This document shows positions 8,732 through 43,528 of a stretch of 64,000 nucleotides of DNA, piece after piece. Each line of letters starts with the position of its first letter. Positions within the stretch are counted from its first letter, which is position 1. Position numbers and translations under genes: made by a program. Location of the stretch: IMG/VR virus record IMGVR_UViG_3300048837_000984, positions 64,001 to 128,000 of that record; one strand, given 5' to 3'. Below the pieces are notes generated by a model that did not search any database, had not been told where the DNA came from, and was given only the letters and a program-made list of their open reading frames with translations. Origin of the DNA: a virus.

Positions 8732-9643
8732 CTAACTATTTCCGAGGACAAGATCTAGAGACCACATTCCTTTCCAGTGTCGGCCGGGTCTCCGGAGGTG
8801 TTTGAGGACTGGGTGCTCGATCTTACCGGTGCCAGCACAGTTCTGGCACCAGATGGAAATGCTTTCCGGCCAGCTGGCTGAACTTGCTGCACTTTTTCTG
8901 AACGTGTAGACAGTCGTTGGGAACCTTTCAACTTCGGCTGATGTGTAAGTCTGCTCACCTTTTCCGGCGCATTTTGGACAGGCGCCAGCTTCCAGACCAG
9001 CTTCCTCCAGAGCGTCTGAAAGAATCGCTAGTCGGTCCGGATCCAGACAGCCGGTAGACAGTTGTGTTGAATAGGCCGTCCTGGCCAGGTCGAGAACTGT
9101 ATCAGTAACGATCGGCGATAGCTTCGTGCCACGCCCACTGCAGGCTTTGCAACGCAAGCGAAGATTTCGGTGTGGAACCGCGCCACCGGCACCGGCAGGA
9201 ACAGTGCCCTTACCTCGACACTTCTTACATTTATCGCCCGGCGGTAAGGCAACCGGCGCCTCTGGATATCGCACGATATCTCTGATGACGTCGGGGACCA
9301 CTCGCCTCTGATTCTCAGTACAACTAAACGACTGTCGAAAGGAGTCTACAGCGGAAGCAATGGTCGCCCAGTACGCGCGTGTCTTAGCGGGTGCCATGAA
9401 CTTCTCTACGGTCGCCCAGGACGATCCGTCGGCCAACATTTCTGCGGCTGTACCGAGCGTGTTTTTGTGTACGGTGCCTTCTGAAGACAGCAACCGAACA
9501 GCTGCCGCGGCGATCAGTCGCATCTGTCTTTCTGTGATCCTGAAAGGCTCTTCGGGTGCAGTTAGCCCCGTCGGATCGCGTTGTGTGAGCCAGTGGTAGA
9601 GCTCGTCTGGGTTCTTGCAGGCCAGCCACTCTGCTTCTGTCAT
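8732..9643 (-). CDS. Gemmataceae-type paralog-family protein with two CxxCxGxG Zn-ribbon inserts
   Basis: Starts MTEAEWLACKNP; LAILSDALEEAG; ends HLRRPGRHWKGMWSLDLVLGNS; start reassigned to the ATGA-coupled ATG at 9643. Confidence 0.8.
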   Translation of the reverse strand: MTEAEWLACKNPDELYHWLTQRDPTGLTAPEEPFRITERQMRLIAAAAVRLLSSEGTVHKNTLGTAAEMLADGSSWATVEKFMAPAKTRAYWATIASAVDSFRQSFSCTENQRRVVPDVIRDIVRYPEAPVALPPGDKCKKCRGKGTVPAGAGGAVPHRNLRLRCKACSGRGTKLSPIVTDTVLDLARTAYSTQLSTGCLDPDRLAILSDALEEAGLEAGACPKCAGKGEQTYTSAEVERFPTTVYTFRKSAASSASWPESISIWCQNCAGTGKIEHPVLKHLRRPGRHWKGMWSLDLVLGNS

Positions 9644-10188
9644 GGAATTATGTCGTCCTCTGGGTTTATTGCTCGGGTTGGTAGGTTTTCCGGCCTGTCC
9701 GGAAGGAGCGTTAGAGGTGCAATTTTGTGCCAGGCTGTCTCCCGAGCCTGGGCTTCCTTCATCAGCGCTTCTAACTTGGGTCGGTTCTCTTCCTTGGCTA
9801 GCCAAGCCCGCAGGAAATGTTCCGTTGCCCTACGTTCGACTTCCCTGCCCCAGCGACCCGTGTTGACATAGCCCTCAGCTCTGGCCATTTCCAGGTAGGG
9901 CTCCGTGTCGACAACTTCCTCGATCGGGACCTTGCTAATCATCGGCAAGACAACCCAACCCTTGGGGATAGCTGCAGCTACCCACACAGCTGTAACGCGT
10001 TCATCGTGAACTGCCTTGATTGCTCTGCACCGCCTACTGACTTCTCTGTCTGCGTCCTTGACACCCAGTTCGACTGCCGGCATGGATGCTGGCAGCCCAG
10101 CTAACAGAATCGCTTCACCTCTCTCGCGGTCCTCAAACGAGTCGCTACCCAGGAGGATCAGCGCAGCCACAAACCATAGATTCATCAC
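9640..10188 (-). CDS. putative exported or membrane protein with HEAT-like 'LGSDSFEDRE' motif
   Basis: Hydrophobic N-terminus; motif recalled as common in planctomycete proteins. Confidence 0.6.
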   Translation of the reverse strand: MMNLWFVAALILLGSDSFEDRERGEAILLAGLPASMPAVELGVKDADREVSRRCRAIKAVHDERVTAVWVAAAIPKGWVVLPMISKVPIEEVVDTEPYLEMARAEGYVNTGRWGREVERRATEHFLRAWLAKEENRPKLEALMKEAQARETAWHKIAPLTLLPDRPENLPTRAINPEDDIIP

Positions 10189-30337: not shown

Positions 30338-30556
30338 TCAGGGCAACAAAGGCGAAGCATCCGCAGAACCCTTCCGGATTGCCCCGATTCGGACCAGGGT
30401 CACGAACTCCCATTCCGTAAGCTTCTGACCGTTGCGAACTCGACCCTGGATCACGCGACGGCTACTTCCCGCCGCCGCAACAGCCGTCTCGTAAGTCTCG
30501 TAAGGCCCCCAAACGTATCGCTGGGGACCGGTACTGTCGACTACGTAAAACATCAC
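30338..30556 (-). CDS. hypothetical protein
   Basis: 72 aa, GTGA coupling to the upstream gene. Confidence 0.55.
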   Translation of the reverse strand: MMFYVVDSTGPQRYVWGPYETYETAVAAAGSSRRVIQGRVRNGQKLTEWEFVTLVRIGAIRKGSADASPLLP

Positions 30557-31308
30557 TCTTCCCCGACCACGAGCTTGTTGACCGAGATGCCGAGGGCATT
30601 TGCGATCGGGACCAGCTTGGAAACGTGAAGCGATCGAAGCCCGAACTCAATCCGGCTCAGATCCGACGCACGAAGATCCACAGCCATGGCCAGCTCGAGC
30701 TGGGTCAGCCCAAGCATCTCCCGGTAGAACCGGATGCGATGCCCGATACCCATGCTTTCCGGACTTGCGTTATTGCTTCGCCCAGGCAATGGAGTCGGGT
30801 TCGCTTCCTGGAGAAACGTGTCCAGAGTGACGTTGAACAGCTGCGCGGCCTTGACCGCAGATGCCCAGGTAGGTCCGGATCGACCACATTCCAGCCGACT
30901 GTACTTGACCATGGAAAATCCGAGCTTGGCTGCGGTTTCGACCTGGGTCATCCGGGCCGTTAACCGCAGCTCTCGAAGCTTTGCCGAGAACCGGGCATTG
31001 ACGCCGAGATCCACCTCAGCCAGGCCTTTTCGCTTTCTACGTCGCTTTGCCGAGATCGACGTAACATCTTCCTCTGCCTTGACTTCCTGTTTGACAGACT
31101 CTTCCGTTTCCATGAGCTCTTTGGCTGAGATACCGAGAGCTGCGCACAGCCGTGTCGCCTCGTCAGGGCCGGGAAGGCAATAGCCGTACTCCCAGCGATA
31201 GATGGACCCTTTGCCGACCCGGGCTTCTGTTGCCAGACGGGTCTGACTCAGGCCAGACCGTGACCGGAGTTTTCGAAGTCTCTCTGCGAACTTTAGATGC
31301 GGTCTCAT
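30553..31308 (-). CDS. XRE/Cro-C1 regulator with three tandem HTH domains
   Basis: Three repeats: LRKLRSRSGLSQ..LA...WEYG; LRELRLTARMTQ...LECG; IRFYREMLGLTQ.ELA...IEFG. Confidence 0.85.
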   Translation of the reverse strand: MRPHLKFAERLRKLRSRSGLSQTRLATEARVGKGSIYRWEYGYCLPGPDEATRLCAALGISAKELMETEESVKQEVKAEEDVTSISAKRRRKRKGLAEVDLGVNARFSAKLRELRLTARMTQVETAAKLGFSMVKYSRLECGRSGPTWASAVKAAQLFNVTLDTFLQEANPTPLPGRSNNASPESMGIGHRIRFYREMLGLTQLELAMAVDLRASDLSRIEFGLRSLHVSKLVPIANALGISVNKLVVGEE

Positions 31309-31760
31309 CCGTCCTCCCGTTCTCCCAGCGCCTTGCCGATCCGACGAGATCGACGAATTTGTTGCTCGGCAAGCCGGTTGGCTTGCAACTGTTGATTCAC
31401 TACGACCTGCTCTCGCAAGGAGAGCTCTTCCACCGGAGTGGACTTCAGATGGTCATCGGCCTTGCGATACTGTCGCAATGCCTTCTTCGTATGACTCTGC
31501 GGAAGATCCCGAATCTGTTCCGAGATCTCGGCGAGCTTGTAAGCTACGCCACGGACACACTTTAGGGAAATACCTCGCTCATCCTTGAGCCGCACTCTCA
31601 ACTTCGTGATGACATGGTTCCAGGAACCATGTCGACGTCGCATGCCCGCCAGTCGTTCGATGACGGTGTAGCGAACCAGCTTGCCGCGGTCAAGCGCCAG
31701 CGTGTACTGCCAGAGCGCCTCCACCGCTTTGGTGATTCTCTCACTCTTTGGGATAAGCAC
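31305..31760 (-). CDS. hypothetical protein directly downstream of the GGY-NN array (candidate accessory gene)
   Basis: GTG start at 31760 after GGAGG; the longer ORF call to 31991 only translates the array. Confidence 0.7.
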   Translation of the reverse strand: MLIPKSERITKAVEALWQYTLALDRGKLVRYTVIERLAGMRRRHGSWNHVITKLRVRLKDERGISLKCVRGVAYKLAEISEQIRDLPQSHTKKALRQYRKADDHLKSTPVEELSLREQVVVNQQLQANRLAEQQIRRSRRIGKALGEREDG

Positions 31761-31783
31761 CGATACCCTCCACAAAAGAAACA

Positions 31784-32142
31784 CCCATCCGCCGTCAGGA
31801 GGATGGGTCCTTGCCTCGCCGCGCCGTACCGGACCGGACCTGGCCTTGCCCAACCCGGCCAAGAAAATACCCACGTGACCAGTTAAGGGAACGTGGGTCC
31901 GGACCATACCTCGCATCGCCAAGCCCCGCCTTGCCTTGCCCTGCCGCGCTACGTTAAACGCAGTCAGTAAAGGCCTTGCGGAAATACCCACTCGACAGTT
32001 TCCTGGAGAGTGGGTCCGAGCCGTACCGAGCCTAGCCGCGCCTTGCCATGCCGAACCCTGCCATACTTAGCCAAGAAAGTGCCTACCTGACGGTTTCCCG
32101 TAAGGTAGGCCCAGACCACACCAAGCCCCACCACACCTAACC
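31784..32142 (-). ncRNA. Array of four (GGY-NN)n + hairpin units; candidate guide RNAs for the adjacent RAMP protein (VIPR-like)
   Basis: Unit1: 6 pentamers 32113-32142, hairpin 32081-32110. Unit2: 11 pentamers 32018-32072, hairpin 31987-32014. Unit3: 10 pentamers 31901-31950, hairpin 31870-31897. Unit4: 10 pentamers 31811-31860, hairpin 31784-31807. U-rich linkers (actttct, tatttc, tattttct, tgtttctttt). Confidence 0.85.
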
Positions 32143-32150
32143 TGGTGCAA

Positions 32151-32819
32151 TCAGCTCAAGGTGACTTCAAACTGGCCCCACGGCCCTGGCGTCGGACAGC
32201 CGGGGCGCCAGTCACCGAGACCCTTCTTACCGGCCTCAGCAAAGATCGCTTCGATTGCCGTTGGAGTCAGGACATCTTCGTTGATGATCTGCAGCTCTCC
32301 AGTCACCGCCCATGCCGTAAACTGTGGCCGCACACGGACATGCTTCGATTTGTTCGAAATCTTTGCCCGCTTAACGAAGAGCTTGAAGCCCATCTTGGCA
32401 ATAGCTGACTGGTGCTTTGGAAACACATCGTCGGGGCTGTCTCCCAGGTCTCGCAGCTTGAGGATCGGCTTGATCGGGATCTGCTTACCGCTGATGGTAA
32501 ACTTCAGGTGCTCGTCCGGGATGAAGAGGCCCGACTGCGACGCTTCCTTGAGCGTCTTACCGCGAGTACCTGGGATCGGGATGGTTGCTCCCGCTTGGCG
32601 CAAGCAGGAAGAGAGATTGTCAGCCGGCATGCTGATGTGCGTGCCGTCGTGGTAGAGACATCCAAGCCAGGACCACGGTGGCGAGCGGTCGTCGCCCTTC
32701 TTGGTAATCTCTTTCGGTGCCGCCGCACGAAATCGCGACAGCTCGTCCGAAAAGTCGATGTTGTCCGCGTGCATCAGCATGTCGGTCCGCCCGCGGCAAA
32801 CGAATCTCACCGTACGCAT
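32151..32819 (-). CDS. RAMP/Cas7-like protein
   Basis: N-terminal strand V.FVCRG...MLMH; helix MPADNLSSCLRQAG; RVRPQF..W; C-terminal Gly-rich loop AGKKGLGDWRP...GPWGQF typical of RAMP G-loops. Confidence 0.75.
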   Translation of the reverse strand: MRTVRFVCRGRTDMLMHADNIDFSDELSRFRAAAPKEITKKGDDRSPPWSWLGCLYHDGTHISMPADNLSSCLRQAGATIPIPGTRGKTLKEASQSGLFIPDEHLKFTISGKQIPIKPILKLRDLGDSPDDVFPKHQSAIAKMGFKLFVKRAKISNKSKHVRVRPQFTAWAVTGELQIINEDVLTPTAIEAIFAEAGKKGLGDWRPGCPTPGPWGQFEVTLS

Positions 32820-32831
32820 AGTTCGTTCCTT

Positions 32832-33053
32832 TCACTTGATAAACGCTTCCAGACTGACTTTGAGAGCGTTAGCTAGACATACCGCGGTAGCCAGCGAAGG
32901 TCCCCAGAGACCGTCTTCTAGACCGCGGATCGTTTGAAGGGTGATTCCAGATAACTTGTGAAGTTTCTGCTGCGTTAAACCAGCGTCGATCCGAAACTTC
33001 GCCAGCCGTTCACTGAAGAGTGAGTCGATTTCCTTCTTACGCTCGTGCGTCAT
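32832..33053 (-). CDS. XRE family HTH regulator
   Basis: LAKFRIDAGLTQQKL...TIRGLEDG..GPSLAT. Confidence 0.85.
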   Translation of the reverse strand: MTHERKKEIDSLFSERLAKFRIDAGLTQQKLHKLSGITLQTIRGLEDGLWGPSLATAVCLANALKVSLEAFIK

Positions 33054-34540: not shown

Positions 34541-35293
34541 TCAGGTAAGAACCTCTACACCAGTCTCTGTCACCAGGACCGTGTGTTCGTATTGCGCCGA
34601 CAGGGATCCGTCCACTGTTCTCACCGTCCACTTGTCAACCTTGTCGACAACAACCTCAGCCAGGCCAACGTTGACGGACGGTTCGATCGTAAACGTCATC
34701 CCCGGCGCCATGGTCAGGATGCTCTCCCACACGACCGTGTGGTTGACCTGTGGCGGTTCATGGAAGGCAAGACCAACCCCATGCCCACAGAACTGGTGAA
34801 CCACCGAATACCCGTGGCGGTTGACGTGCGGCTCGATCGCCTTGCCGATGTTGCTGAAGTACGCGTACGGCTTGACTTGCCGAATCCCCATTTGTAAGGC
34901 CTGCTCGGCTACCGACAACAATCTGCGAGCCTCGTCTGAAATGTCTCCGACGGCGAACGTTGTGCTTGTGTCTCCGTAGTAACCGTTGAGCACGGTCGTC
35001 ACGTCGATGTTGACGATGTCTCCTTCCTTGAGAACGTACTCCGACGGGATGCCATGGCACACCACTTCGTTGACCGAGATGCAAGTCGCAGCTGGAAACC
35101 CCTGATAACCCTTGGGAGCCGGAATGGCTTTGTTATCCGTGATGTAGGCCTCTAGCAAGTCGTTAAGGTGTCTGGTCGTAACACCCGGCAAGACGTGCGG
35201 CTCGATAAACTCTAGGCAAGATCTGGCCAGGCGACAACTCTTGCGGATCCCATCGATCTGTTCCGGCGTCTTTATCAACATGGGTGTCTGCAT
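34541..35293 (-). CDS. map: type I methionine aminopeptidase
   Basis: CISVNEVVCHGIP, GDIVNIDVT, GYYGDTS, FCGHGVG..FHEPP, FTIEP, SAQYEHTVLVT. Confidence 0.97.
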   Translation of the reverse strand: MQTPMLIKTPEQIDGIRKSCRLARSCLEFIEPHVLPGVTTRHLNDLLEAYITDNKAIPAPKGYQGFPAATCISVNEVVCHGIPSEYVLKEGDIVNIDVTTVLNGYYGDTSTTFAVGDISDEARRLLSVAEQALQMGIRQVKPYAYFSNIGKAIEPHVNRHGYSVVHQFCGHGVGLAFHEPPQVNHTVVWESILTMAPGMTFTIEPSVNVGLAEVVVDKVDKWTVRTVDGSLSAQYEHTVLVTETGVEVLT

Positions 35294-37480: not shown

Positions 37481-37511
37481 GGTCACTACCTCAGAGTTGC
37501 GAAGGGGAAAT

Positions 37512-37584
37512 GTGTAGCTGCCGGAGTTGAACCGACTTCTCCAGGGGTTTATGAGCCCCTCATGGTACCGACCACCCAACTACA
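37512..37584 (-). tRNA. degenerate tRNA-like gene, anticodon CAT, 8-nt anticodon loop
   Basis: Acceptor TGTAGTT/AGCTACA, D stem GTGG/CCAT, anticodon stem AGGGG/CCCCT with loop CTCATAAA, T arm GTCGG-TTCAACT-CCGGC. Confidence 0.65.
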
Positions 37585-37630
37585 CACGGACAGCAGGTCA
37601 CCCCCATAGCAGCGCCTGCTGTCGCCTAGC

Positions 37631-43456: not shown

Positions 43457-43528
43457 TGGGAACGGCGGGAGTTGAACCCACTTCCAAGGGTTTATGAGAC
43501 CCCTGCTCTACCGTTGAGCTTCGTTCCC
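43457..43528 (-). tRNA. tRNA, anticodon CAT (elongator Met or Ile2)
   Basis: GGGAACG/CGTTCCC acceptor, GCTC/GAGC D stem, GGGGT-CTCATAA-ACCCT, GTGGG-TTCAACT-CCCGC; CCA not encoded. Confidence 0.9.

What the first reader, a model, noticed from the sequence alone, without database searches (positions are those of the whole stretch)
31784..32819. RAMP/Cas7-like gene followed by an array of (GGY-NN)n + hairpin RNAs: candidate phage RNA-guided targeting system without CRISPR repeats
SEEN: 9 nt after the stop of a 222-aa gene come four modular units. Each is a U-rich linker, 6-11 strictly phased pentamers GGY-NN (constant GG(C/T), variable dinucleotide), then GG(A) and a 7-8-bp stem hairpin (three have CCCA...TGGG stems). 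KNOWLEDGE: the protein has RAMP/RRM hallmarks, namely an N-terminal strand with Gly and a C-terminal G-loop GLGDWRP...G.WGQF, as in Cas7/Csm3-type backbone subunits that oligomerise along guide RNA with fixed periodicity. INFERENCE: each subunit would clamp one GGY and present the NN for pairing, so the guide is an interleaved, non-contiguous code. The hairpins would be processing or terminator signals that release separate RNAs. I see no cas1/cas2/cas3/cas6 or CRISPR array in the window. From memory, this matches the recently reported 'VIPR' (viral interference programmable repeat) architecture; I cannot verify that here.
Basis: partly seen in the sequence, partly recalled or inferred. Interest (0 to 1): 0.96.

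Follow-up and report, generated by a model that had tools for sequence, protein, structure and literature searches.

The report
Phage VIPR locus: Vipr plus four vrRNAs
A complete 194-kb uncultured phage carries a genuine VIPR system, the CRISPR-like RNA-guided DNA silencer first described in 2026: a small Cas7-like protein, four guide RNAs built from GGY-NN five-base repeats and a DNA-binding helper gene. It is a real but not new kind of system, and what its guides target is still unknown.

Summary
On the minus strand a 222-aa gene (32151-32819) is followed 8 nt later by four units. Each has 6, 11, 9 or 10 phased GGY-NN pentamers, then GG, a covarying hairpin and a U-rich linker. These are the only such runs in the 193,694-bp genome; about 0.2 are expected by chance per 64 kb.

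VIPR is published (bioRxiv 10.64898/2026.04.26.720920, .720927, 2026.10.15.759431), and this locus passes every sequence-level membership test I could run:
- A profile of the protein's relatives hits the solved SUSP1 Vipr (E 1.3e-15).
- All five GG-contacting residues are kept.
- The predicted fold matches Cas7/Csm3.
- 107 of 113 homologous loci carry same-strand GGYNN runs beside the gene.
- NN positions vary about 6 times more than GGY among near-identical loci.
- The downstream 151-aa gene is a vap1 homolog, so the locus looks type II-like.
- No Cas1, Pfam RAMP domain or CRISPR-like tandem repeat was found.

I found no credible target in the phage's own genome, IMG/VR or the JGI metagenomes. 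The few exact hits are at chance level.

Verdict: a new member of a known kind. This scan has already noted VIPR loci in at least 211 other genomes.

The parts
32151..32819 (-). vipr gene: 222-aa stand-alone RAMP (Cas7-like) protein
   Evidence: A profile of 33 homologs hits PDB 36pp_D 'SUSP1 Vipr protein' at E 1.3e-15. The AF2 model has pLDDT 92.5. The top fold matches are all Cas7/Csm3/Cmr4, up to Z 9.8. H17, R164, D203, W204 and R205 align to the SUSP1 GG-contact residues H17, R138, D177, W178 and R179, and all are invariant in the family.
32081..32142 (-). vrRNA1: 6 GGYNN units (NN = TA GT GG TT GT CT) plus a hairpin tail with stem GCCTACCT/AGGTAGGC and inner stem ACGG-GAAA-CCGT
   Evidence: The sister phage L126 has the same tail type with a compensatory inner-stem change and 9 units of unrelated NN.
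31986..32072 (-). vrRNA2: 11 units (unit 2 degenerate, AGTAT) plus a hairpin tail ACCCACTC...GAGTGGGT
31869..31945 (-). vrRNA3: 9 units (unit 7 degenerate, TGCGA) plus a hairpin tail ACCCACGT...ACGTGGGT. It is preceded by a 40-nt spacer (31946-31985).
31783..31860 (-). vrRNA4: 10 canonical units plus a terminal hairpin tail ACCCATCC...GGATGGGT followed by GTTTCTTTTG
   Evidence: The tail is conserved in L126, with an A-to-G change that keeps pairing as G-U.
31305..31760 (-). vap1-like accessory gene: 151 aa, GTG start 6 nt after a GGAGGG Shine-Dalgarno sequence; predicted winged helix plus two long helices
   Evidence: It is syntenic and 35-36% identical in the nearest relatives. Homologs lie beside vipr on the same strand in 45 loci. 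The family profile matches the gene just downstream of vipr in SUSP2 (hhalign probability 96.1%, E 3.4e-9) and in LESphi2 (95.9%). The AF2 model has pLDDT 92.6. Fold hits are weak and are mostly winged-helix DNA binders.
32832..33053 (-). 73-aa HTH_3 protein 12 nt upstream of vipr. It is a neighbour that may share the operon and is not shown to belong to the system.
   Evidence: Pfam HTH_3 at E 9.9e-8. The same gene order is seen in close relatives L126 and L127, but not in L115, L123 or L124.
30553..31308 (-). 251-aa protein with three HTH domains. Its ATG overlaps the vap stop codon (ATGA). It is a neighbour and is not shown to belong to the system.
   Evidence: Pfam HTH_31, HTH_3 and HTH_19, each with 3 matching stretches.

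Best explanation
This is a bona fide, apparently intact VIPR (Viral Interference Programmable Repeat) locus of the vap1-bearing, type II-like kind. It sits in a complete 193.7-kb phage genome with direct terminal repeats.

The gene order on the minus strand is HTH73, vipr, vrRNA1-4, vap1-like, triple-HTH.

The mechanism below is taken from the characterised SUSP1 and P. fulva systems and is not shown for this locus. Vipr protomers polymerise along each vrRNA, one per pentamer. They flip out and sequester each GGY through H17, R164, D203, W204 and R205, and they present the NN dinucleotides. The NN pair with double-stranded DNA that reads NN-x-NN-x (one base skipped, usually the codon wobble base). 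This forms a gapped R-loop that blocks transcription of the target, most likely a gene of a competing phage, satellite or other mobile element.

The conserved 3' hairpin tail caps each guide. Only 8-nt U-rich linkers separate vrRNA1 from vrRNA2 and vrRNA3 from vrRNA4, and vrRNA1 starts 8 nt after the vipr stop. I therefore infer that the guides are made from a longer transcript by partial termination and/or nuclease trimming to the protein-protected footprint. The winged-helix Vap1-like protein probably enhances the effect, as vap1 does for SUSP1.

Shown here: sequence anatomy, homology, fold, family-wide linkage of gene and array, NN hypervariability and tail covariation. Inferred: expression, RNP formation, DNA silencing, and what the guides target.
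For: - Published definition and mechanism of VIPR.
- Protein homology: the profile of 33 relatives against the solved SUSP1 Vipr gives E 1.3e-15 over both the N- and C-terminal parts. The single sequence gives E 0.0086.
- Fold: pLDDT 92.5. The top 24 VIA matches and all listed Foldseek matches are CRISPR RAMP backbone subunits, up to Z 9.8.
- Contact residues are conserved and invariant.
- Arrays: four phased runs against 0.22 expected, and no comparable run elsewhere in the genome, only one 4-unit run.
- Family linkage: 107 of 113 homologous loci have same-strand GGYNN runs within 1.5 kb of the gene. Only 7 short 4-5-unit runs lie elsewhere or on the other strand.
- Reference loci SUSP2 and LESphi2 show the same design of GGYNN, GG(G) and hairpin.
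- NN turnover: in 102 pairs of loci with at least 90% identical vipr, the mismatch rate is 17.3% at NN, 2.9% at GGY and 1.7% in the CDS.
- A sister phage whose Vipr is 92% identical has 2 guides instead of 4, with unrelated NN but the same tails.
- Tail structure: 10 of 11 predicted pairs show compensatory changes.
- vap1 homology.
- No self-target: the best own-genome matches are 16/22 and 15/20, the same as the 0- and 2-nt skip controls and the non-array hits at 3-nt skip. The paper reports the same for its systems.
- Virus record with terminal repeats, 100% complete, no Cas1 and no Pfam RAMP domain.
Against: - No natural target was found, so the guide function of these particular RNAs is not demonstrated.
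- vrRNA1 has only 6 units, and vrRNA2 and vrRNA3 each carry one degenerate unit. The paper gives 9-16 repeats as typical, so some guides may be weak or decaying.
- The tail is a plain two-tier hairpin. I saw no consistent pseudoknot like that of the SUSP1 clade.
- No sigma-70-like promoter or canonical terminator was detected in the region.
- There are no expression data.
- The type assignment rests on vap1 homology only. The paper's phylogeny and supplementary tables were not available.
Confidence: 0.93

Rival explanations
1. This is a real VIPR locus, but it is used for something other than inter-phage conflict. The guides could silence host genes (host takeover or anti-defence), or they could bind RNA rather than DNA.
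For: No target was found in about 2.9 million viral contigs by exact-code scans of vr2, vr3 and vr4. None was found among 124 fetched loci. Earlier notes of this scan claim host-defence targets for other VIPR loci (unchecked). The structure paper shows that the filament can also pair with ssRNA.
Against: All experimentally mapped targets so far are mobile elements. ssRNA gave mostly incomplete filaments.
Confidence: 0.12
2. The locus is a decaying or inactive VIPR remnant. The array is shrinking and the guides no longer function.
For: vrRNA1 is short at 6 units. vrRNA2 and vrRNA3 each have a degenerate unit. A 40-nt spacer before vrRNA3 holds one in-phase GGCCT, which could be a decayed unit. 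The sister phage L126 has a 3-unit stump.
Against: vipr and vap are intact, and every functional residue is kept. The locus is base-for-base identical in a second sample. vrRNA4 has 10 perfect units. Internal degeneracy of vrRNAs is described as common in the paper's methods.
Confidence: 0.04
3. The pentamer tracts are not guide RNAs. They could be coding sequence, terminator or REP-like elements, or protein-binding DNA repeats.
For: A mechanical ORF (31305-31991, 228 aa) runs through vrRNA3 and vrRNA4. The hairpins followed by U-rich runs resemble weak terminators.
Against: A 5-nt period is incompatible with coding. Homologs of the real gene start at MLIPKSE, after the array. The tracts track vipr on the same strand in over 100 loci from many phyla. 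The experimentally verified vrRNAs of the SUSP1 clade have the same design.
Confidence: 0.01

Closest known systems
Type II VIPR systems of Escherichia phage SUSP1/SUSP2 and the Pseudomonas fulva prophage (bioRxiv 10.64898/2026.04.26.720920; structures in 10.64898/2026.04.26.720927)
   Same: Both have a single small Vipr RAMP with the H...R...GDWRP contact residues. Both have vrRNAs of GGY-NN pentamers ending in GG plus a structured tail. Both have a vap1-family winged-helix accessory gene, a viral genome context, no cas genes and no self-targeting.
   Different: - Only about 20-25% protein identity to the type II references.
- Gene order here is vipr, vrRNAs, vap1. In SUSP2 it is vrRNAs, vipr, vap1, vrRNAs.
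- All guides lie downstream of vipr here, packed with 8-nt linkers and no room for individual promoters.
- The tail is a two-tier hairpin with no evident pseudoknot.
- GGC predominates over GGT.
- The host and the targets are unknown.
- The phage is a 194-kb environmental phage.
Nearest environmental relatives: L126 (Vipr 92% identical), L115-L122, L123 and L124 (57-65% identical), from metagenome contigs
   Same: The vipr, array, vap order is the same. The tail design is the same. An AU-rich linker follows each tail.
   Different: Guide number and NN content differ completely. L126 has 2 guides. L115 has 3 upstream and 3 downstream. L115 and L116 encode identical Vipr proteins but differ at NN positions only.
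Class 1 CRISPR-Cas backbone subunits (Cas7, Csm3, Cmr4, type VII Cas7)
   Same: They share the RRM core, G-loop and thumb fold. They oligomerise along a guide RNA with a fixed period and flip out bases at intervals (fold matches up to Z 9.8).
   Different: There is no CRISPR array, no Cas1 or Cas2, no Cas5, Cas6 or large subunit, and no spacer acquisition. The period is 5 nt with 3 bases sequestered, against 6 nt with 1 flipped. The guide is non-contiguous. Sequence identity is about 10%.

Membership tests
VIPR system | A stand-alone Vipr protein homologous to experimentally characterised Vipr | tested here: met
   The profile A1 against PDB 36pp_D 'SUSP1 Vipr protein' gives E 1.3e-15 and 60.9 bits, in two stretches covering residues 2-79 and 133-202. 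tblastn also finds the LESphi2 Vipr at E 6e-6.
VIPR system | RAMP fold with RRM core, glycine-rich loop and thumb | tested here: met
   AF2 pLDDT is 92.5. Foldseek and VIA top hits are all Cas7, Csm3, Cmr4 or Cas7-11. The G-loop is GLGDWRPG at residues 200-207. A beta-hairpin at 145-167 carries R164.
VIPR system | Residues that read G1, G2 and Y3 of the repeat (SUSP1 H17, R138, D177, W178, R179) | tested here: met
   They align to H17, R164, D203, W204 and R205 (alignment, numbering). All five are invariant in 33 homologs.
VIPR system | vrRNA genes: tandem YNNGG/GGYNN repeats of at least 4 units (typically 9-16) next to vipr on the same strand | tested here: met
   There are four runs of 6, 11, 9 and 10 units starting 8 nt after the stop. 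One guide is below the typical range and two contain one degenerate unit each.
VIPR system | A conserved structured 3' tail after the repeat tract | tested here: met
   Each tract ends in GG plus an 8-bp stem with an inner stem-loop. Across 11 tails, 10 of 11 pairs show compensatory changes. A pseudoknot, reported only for the SUSP1 clade, was not evident.
VIPR system | GGY conserved and NN hypervariable among related loci | tested here: met
   In 102 near-identical locus pairs the mismatch rate is 17.3% at NN, 2.9% at GGY and 1.7% in the CDS. L126, whose Vipr is 92% identical, has unrelated NN.
VIPR system | Minimal locus without a CRISPR array or cas genes, mostly in viruses | tested here: met
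   No CRISPR-like tandem repeats. No Cas1 (PF01867) or Pfam RAMP (PF03787) anywhere in the genome. Other cas families were not searched. The record is an IMG/VR virus with terminal repeats, 100% complete.
VIPR system | vrRNAs are expressed and co-purify with Vipr | not testable with these tools
   This needs small-RNA sequencing and a pull-down.
VIPR system | Guides match natural dsDNA targets under the 1-nt skip rule | tested here: inconclusive
   There is no self-target. Exact-code scans gave 0 or 1 hits each, at the level I estimate for chance and in implausible contexts: L114, L125 and L130. Mismatch-tolerant searches of large collections were not possible.
VIPR type II (vap1-bearing) | Accessory gene vap1, a predicted DNA-binding protein, adjacent to vipr | tested here: met
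   The profile of the 151-aa gene family against the gene following vipr in SUSP2 gives hhalign probability 96.1% and E 3.4e-9 over 120 columns. Against LESphi2 it gives 95.9%. The model has a winged-helix topology.
VIPR type II (vap1-bearing) | Placement in the type II clade of the Vipr phylogeny | not tested
   The paper's tree and tables are not held. No tree with typed references was built.
CRISPR-Cas class 1 (Cas7 as part of an effector complex) | A CRISPR repeat-spacer array plus further cas genes (Cas5, Cas6, large subunit, Cas1-Cas2) | tested here: not met
   No repeat-spacer-like tandem repeats. No Cas1 or Pfam RAMP domain in the whole genome. Cas5, Cas6, Cas2 and large-subunit families were not searched individually. 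Only one vipr copy is present.

The most novel reading that the evidence does not exclude
In this large virulent-looking phage with terminal repeats, the guides are aimed at the unknown host's genes rather than at rival mobile elements. The system would then be an RNA-guided host-takeover or anti-defence tool. Alternatively, this clade makes its guides in a different way: tightly packed guides released from the vipr mRNA by hairpin and AU-rich signals, with readthrough controlling vap1. My data exclude neither reading, because no target and no promoter were found.
Probability: 0.12. Interest if true: 0.6.

Novelty: new member of a known kind. Interest (0 to 1): 0.35.

Why it matters
The result confirms that a reader working from raw sequence alone can recognise a VIPR locus. 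It also adds a clean, complete-genome example from a 194-kb freshwater phage to a class first described in 2026.

Three details may be useful to people working on VIPR:
- A sister phage with a 92% identical Vipr has a completely different guide set. This shows how fast guide arrays turn over.
- The tail here is a simple covarying two-tier hairpin rather than a pseudoknot.
- vap1 homology extends to very distant environmental clades, with the array inserted between vipr and vap1.

The result does not change what is known about the mechanism, and the targets remain unknown.

Tried and rejected
- **Self-targeting.** Scans of the 193.7-kb genome with 0-3-nt skip codes found nothing above the controls.
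- **Cross-targeting.** The four guides against 124 fetched loci, and 254 guides from all relatives against those loci plus this genome, gave no match of 90% or better at skip 1.
- **Exact-code scans of IMG/VR.**
  - vr4 gave 0 hits and vr2 gave 0 hits.
  - vr3 gave 1 hit (L114, an AT-rich contig, inside an apparently ordinary enzyme ORF I did not annotate).
  - vr2 units 3-11 gave 1 hit (L130, 45% GC, flanking units mismatch).
  - vr4 units 2-10 gave 0 hits.
  - Sister guides from L126 and L115 gave 0 hits.
  - I estimate roughly one chance hit for an 18-letter code, so I treat these hits as chance.
- **JGI metagenome scan with vr4.** It gave 1 hit (L125), on a contig with low ORF density, in a C2H2 zinc-finger-like ORF and out of wobble frame. 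I reject it as chance.
- **Guides decoded as NNx codons.** The resulting peptides (for example [FL]SAVGG[CW][FL][HQ]R and [DE]V[DE]YA[FL][IM][DE]L[IM]Y) resembled no motif I recognise.
- **Host inference.** The phage's methionine aminopeptidase has named best hits in Bacteroidota at about 60% identity, which is too generic to use. 'Relatives' cannot be drawn for a virus record.
- **Rfam.** No family matched, including hammerhead.
- **Promoter and terminator scan.** Nothing useful was found.
- **Pseudoknot in the tail.** Loop GGAAA could pair with the 3' UUUCC in vr1 and vr2 but not in vr3 or vr4, so I dropped the idea.
- **Pfam on Vipr and Vap.** No family matched. PHROGs gave only families of unknown function, 4652 and 5926.
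Full report
**1. The observation**

Read on the minus strand, the 222-aa ORF at 32151-32819 ends in TGA. After 8 nt (TTGCACCA) come four modular units.

| Unit | Pentamers | Position of pentamers | Tail | What follows |
|---|---|---|---|---|
| 1 | 6 strictly phased GGYNN | 32113-32142 | GG-GCCTACCT...AGGTAGGC | ACTTTCTT |
| 2 | 11 (second is AGTAT) | 32018-32072 | GG-ACCCACTC...GAGTGGGT | ATTTCC plus a 34-nt spacer |
| 3 | 9 (seventh is TGCGA) | 31901-31945 | GG-ACCCACGT...ACGTGGGT | ATTTTCTT |
| 4 | 10 perfect | 31811-31860 | GG-ACCCATCC...GGATGGGT | GTTTCTTTTG |

A GGAGGG Shine-Dalgarno sequence and the GTG start of the next gene (31760) follow unit 4.

A regex scan for runs of at least 4 exact units finds only these four runs in the window. 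First-order Markov shuffles give 0.22 on average. The whole 193,694-bp genome adds only one 4-unit run elsewhere.

**2. The system is already in print**

A full-text search found three preprints on Viral Interference Programmable Repeat systems:
- 10.64898/2026.04.26.720920 covers discovery, the code and the types.
- 10.64898/2026.04.26.720927 reports the cryo-EM structures.
- 10.64898/2026.10.15.759431 covers competition between phage and satellite.

They define VIPR as follows:
- a small stand-alone RAMP protein, Vipr;
- vrRNAs made of 9-16 GGY/NN pentamers followed by a conserved structured tail;
- usually one accessory gene, vap;
- no cas genes and no CRISPR array;
- a mostly viral or proviral location.

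The mechanism is also described. One protomer binds each repeat. GGY is sequestered and NN is presented. dsDNA is read with one skipped base per NN, which forms a gapped R-loop triplex and silences transcription.

**3. The protein**

The sequence alone hits PDB 36pp_D 'SUSP1 Vipr protein' weakly, at E 0.0086. A profile of 33 relatives (alignment A1) hits it at E 1.3e-15, with aligned stretches in both the N-terminal strand region and the C-terminal thumb and G-loop region.

The residues that the structure paper names as reading G1, G2 and Y3 are H17, R138, D177, W178 and R179. They align to H17, R164, D203, W204 and R205 here, and all five are invariant in A1.

The AlphaFold model is confident, with pLDDT 92.5 and pTM 0.87. 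All listed Foldseek matches are CRISPR RAMP backbone subunits: type VII Cas7, Csm3, Csm5 and Csf2. An independent scan of 48,161 chains puts Csm3, Cas7, Cmr4 and Cas7-11 in the top 24 places, at Z 9.8 down to 6.6.

Pfam has no model for the protein. PHROGs places it in family 4652, of unknown function. An exhaustive HMM search finds 3,819 50%-identity clusters at E <= 1e-3 and 757 at E <= 1e-10.

**4. Linkage of gene and array across the family**

I fetched 33 loci from species-representative genomes and 80 from IMG/VR. In 107 of these 113 loci, same-strand GGYNN runs of at least 4 units lie within 1.5 kb of the vipr homolog. In 83 loci they lie downstream. Only 7 short runs of 4-5 units lie elsewhere or on the opposite strand.

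The reference loci I pulled from GenBank have the same design of GGYNN tracts ending in GG(G) plus a hairpin. These are SUSP2, a close relative of SUSP1, and Pseudomonas phage LESphi2.

**5. NN positions are the variable ones**

Among 102 pairs of loci whose vipr CDS is at least 90% identical, the mismatch rates are as follows:

| Position class | Mismatch rate |
|---|---|
| NN positions | 17.3% |
| GGY positions | 2.9% |
| vipr CDS | 1.7% |
| Other flanking DNA | 8.3% |

The pairs are not independent, and the GGY class is defined on one member of each pair. Even so, the contrast between NN and CDS is large.

Two direct cases support this:
- L115 and L116 encode identical Vipr proteins and differ only at NN letters.
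- L126, a Logan contig, has Vipr 92% and Vap 90% identical to ours, yet it carries two guides instead of four. One has 9 units with the vrRNA1-type tail and unrelated NN. The other is a 3-unit stump with the vrRNA4-type tail.

L127, a 40-kb contig from another JGI sample, is identical to the window across the array.

**6. The tail**

Each tail folds as an 8-bp outer stem, a small internal loop and a 2-4-bp inner stem. The inner stem is capped by GAAA in vrRNA1 and vrRNA2.

Across 11 tails from the window, L126, L115 and L123, RNAalifold predicts 11 pairs, and 10 of them show compensatory double changes. Between the window and L126, the inner stem changes from ACGG/CCGT to ACAG/CTGT.

I saw no consistent pseudoknot. 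The paper reports one only for the SUSP1 clade. Rfam 15 has no matching family.

**7. The accessory gene**

The 151-aa ORF at 31305-31760 is syntenic with genes in the closest relatives. It is 36% identical to its counterpart in L115 (E 3e-35) and 35% identical to that in L124 (E 5e-26). With three seed sequences, tblastn finds homologs in 45 loci, always on the vipr strand and almost always just downstream.

A profile of 24 members (A3) matches the gene immediately after vipr in SUSP2, which is the vap1 position. The hhalign probability is 96.1% and E is 3.4e-9 over 120 columns. It also matches the corresponding LESphi2 gene at 95.9%.

The model has pLDDT 92.6 and shows a winged-helix topology followed by two long helices. 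Foldseek gives only weak hits (E 0.02-0.2), and they are mostly winged-helix DNA binders. This agrees with the paper's description of type II vap proteins as predicted DNA binders.

I therefore call the locus type II-like. I could not place Vipr in the paper's typed tree, because no supplementary files are held.

**8. Context**

The genome is an IMG/VR virus record of 193,694 bp with direct terminal repeats, and CheckV rates it 100% complete. It has one vipr copy, no Cas1 and no Pfam RAMP domain.

Nearly all genes in the window are on the minus strand. A 73-aa HTH gene lies 12 nt upstream of vipr. It is conserved in L126 and L127 but not in more distant relatives. A 251-aa protein with three HTH domains starts at the vap stop codon.

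Neither a sigma-70-like promoter nor a canonical terminator was found. Only 8-nt linkers separate vrRNA1 from vrRNA2 and vrRNA3 from vrRNA4, and vrRNA1 starts 8 nt after the stop. The guides must therefore come from a longer transcript. That they are released by partial termination at the hairpin-U tracts and/or by trimming is my inference.

**9. Targets**

I followed the paper's recipe of replacing GGY by one wildcard.

- The four guides have no match in their own genome above the 0-, 2- and 3-nt skip controls. The paper also reports no self-targeting.
- There is none in the 124 loci then held.
- There is no cross-targeting among 254 guides from relatives.
- Exact-code scans of IMG/VR and one scan of the JGI metagenomes gave three single hits, L114, L125 and L130. 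I estimate about one chance hit for an 18-20-letter code. All three hits are implausible: wrong G+C content, a eukaryote-looking contig, out of wobble frame, or mismatched flanking units.
- Two guides from sister loci also found nothing.

These scans tolerate no mismatch, and the host is unknown, so the negative result is weak. Read as NNx codons, the guides spell no motif that I recognise.

**10. Verdict**

This is a genuine VIPR locus and probably a functional one. It is a new member of a published kind, so it is not a discovery in itself. This scan has already recorded VIPR-type loci in at least 211 other genomes.

The points of modest added value are the complete-genome context, the fast guide turnover shown by the 92%-identical sister phage, the simple covarying hairpin tail, and the vap1 homology with the array inserted between vipr and vap1.

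Noticed in passing
L126:1158-1360 (Logan SRR31843394) compared with window 31740-32170: A sister phage has Vipr 92% and Vap 90% identical to ours, yet it carries only two guides. One has 9 units with unrelated NN. The other is a 3-unit stump. Both keep the window's two tail types. This is a natural example of array contraction or replacement.
   Followed up: yes
L115:2097-2372 compared with L116:537-812: Two metagenome contigs encode the identical Vipr protein, and their upstream arrays differ only at NN letters of one guide (GGCCA GGCAA against GGCCG GGCGG).
   Followed up: partly
L115, L123 and L124, the linkers after each tail: In the 57-65% identical relatives, each internal tail is followed by a conserved AUUU(U)GAAG-like motif before the next guide. 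The window has AYUUUCUU instead. This could be a processing signal.
   Followed up: no
window 31946-31985 (-): The 40-nt spacer between vrRNA2 and vrRNA3 contains one GGCCT that is in phase with the vrRNA3 pentamers. It could be the decayed 5' part of a longer guide, an internal promoter, or chance (about 1 in 5).
   Followed up: no
window 30553-31308 (-): A 251-aa protein has three consecutive Cro/C1-type HTH domains. Its ATG overlaps the vap stop (ATGA), which suggests translational coupling to the VIPR operon.
   Followed up: no
window 34541-35293 (-): The phage encodes a type I methionine aminopeptidase (Pfam Peptidase_M24). It is 60-65% identical to many cellular enzymes, and the named best hits are Bacteroidota (Salinivirgaceae).
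   Followed up: partly
window 37511-37585 (-) and 43457-43528 (-): ARAGORN calls a tRNA of undetermined identity with a four-base anticodon (cata), and a normal tRNA-Met (cat).
   Followed up: no
window 8732-9805 (-): A 357-aa protein has weak PHROG matches to anti-termination protein Q-like families.
   Followed up: no
L128 (Pseudomonas phage vB_Pae_LESphi2, OQ594955.1 4403-6329): This cultured P. aeruginosa LES prophage has an unannotated VIPR locus next to its cI/cro switch. Three vrRNAs lie upstream of a 'hypothetical protein' that is Vipr, followed by a vap1 homolog.
   Followed up: partly
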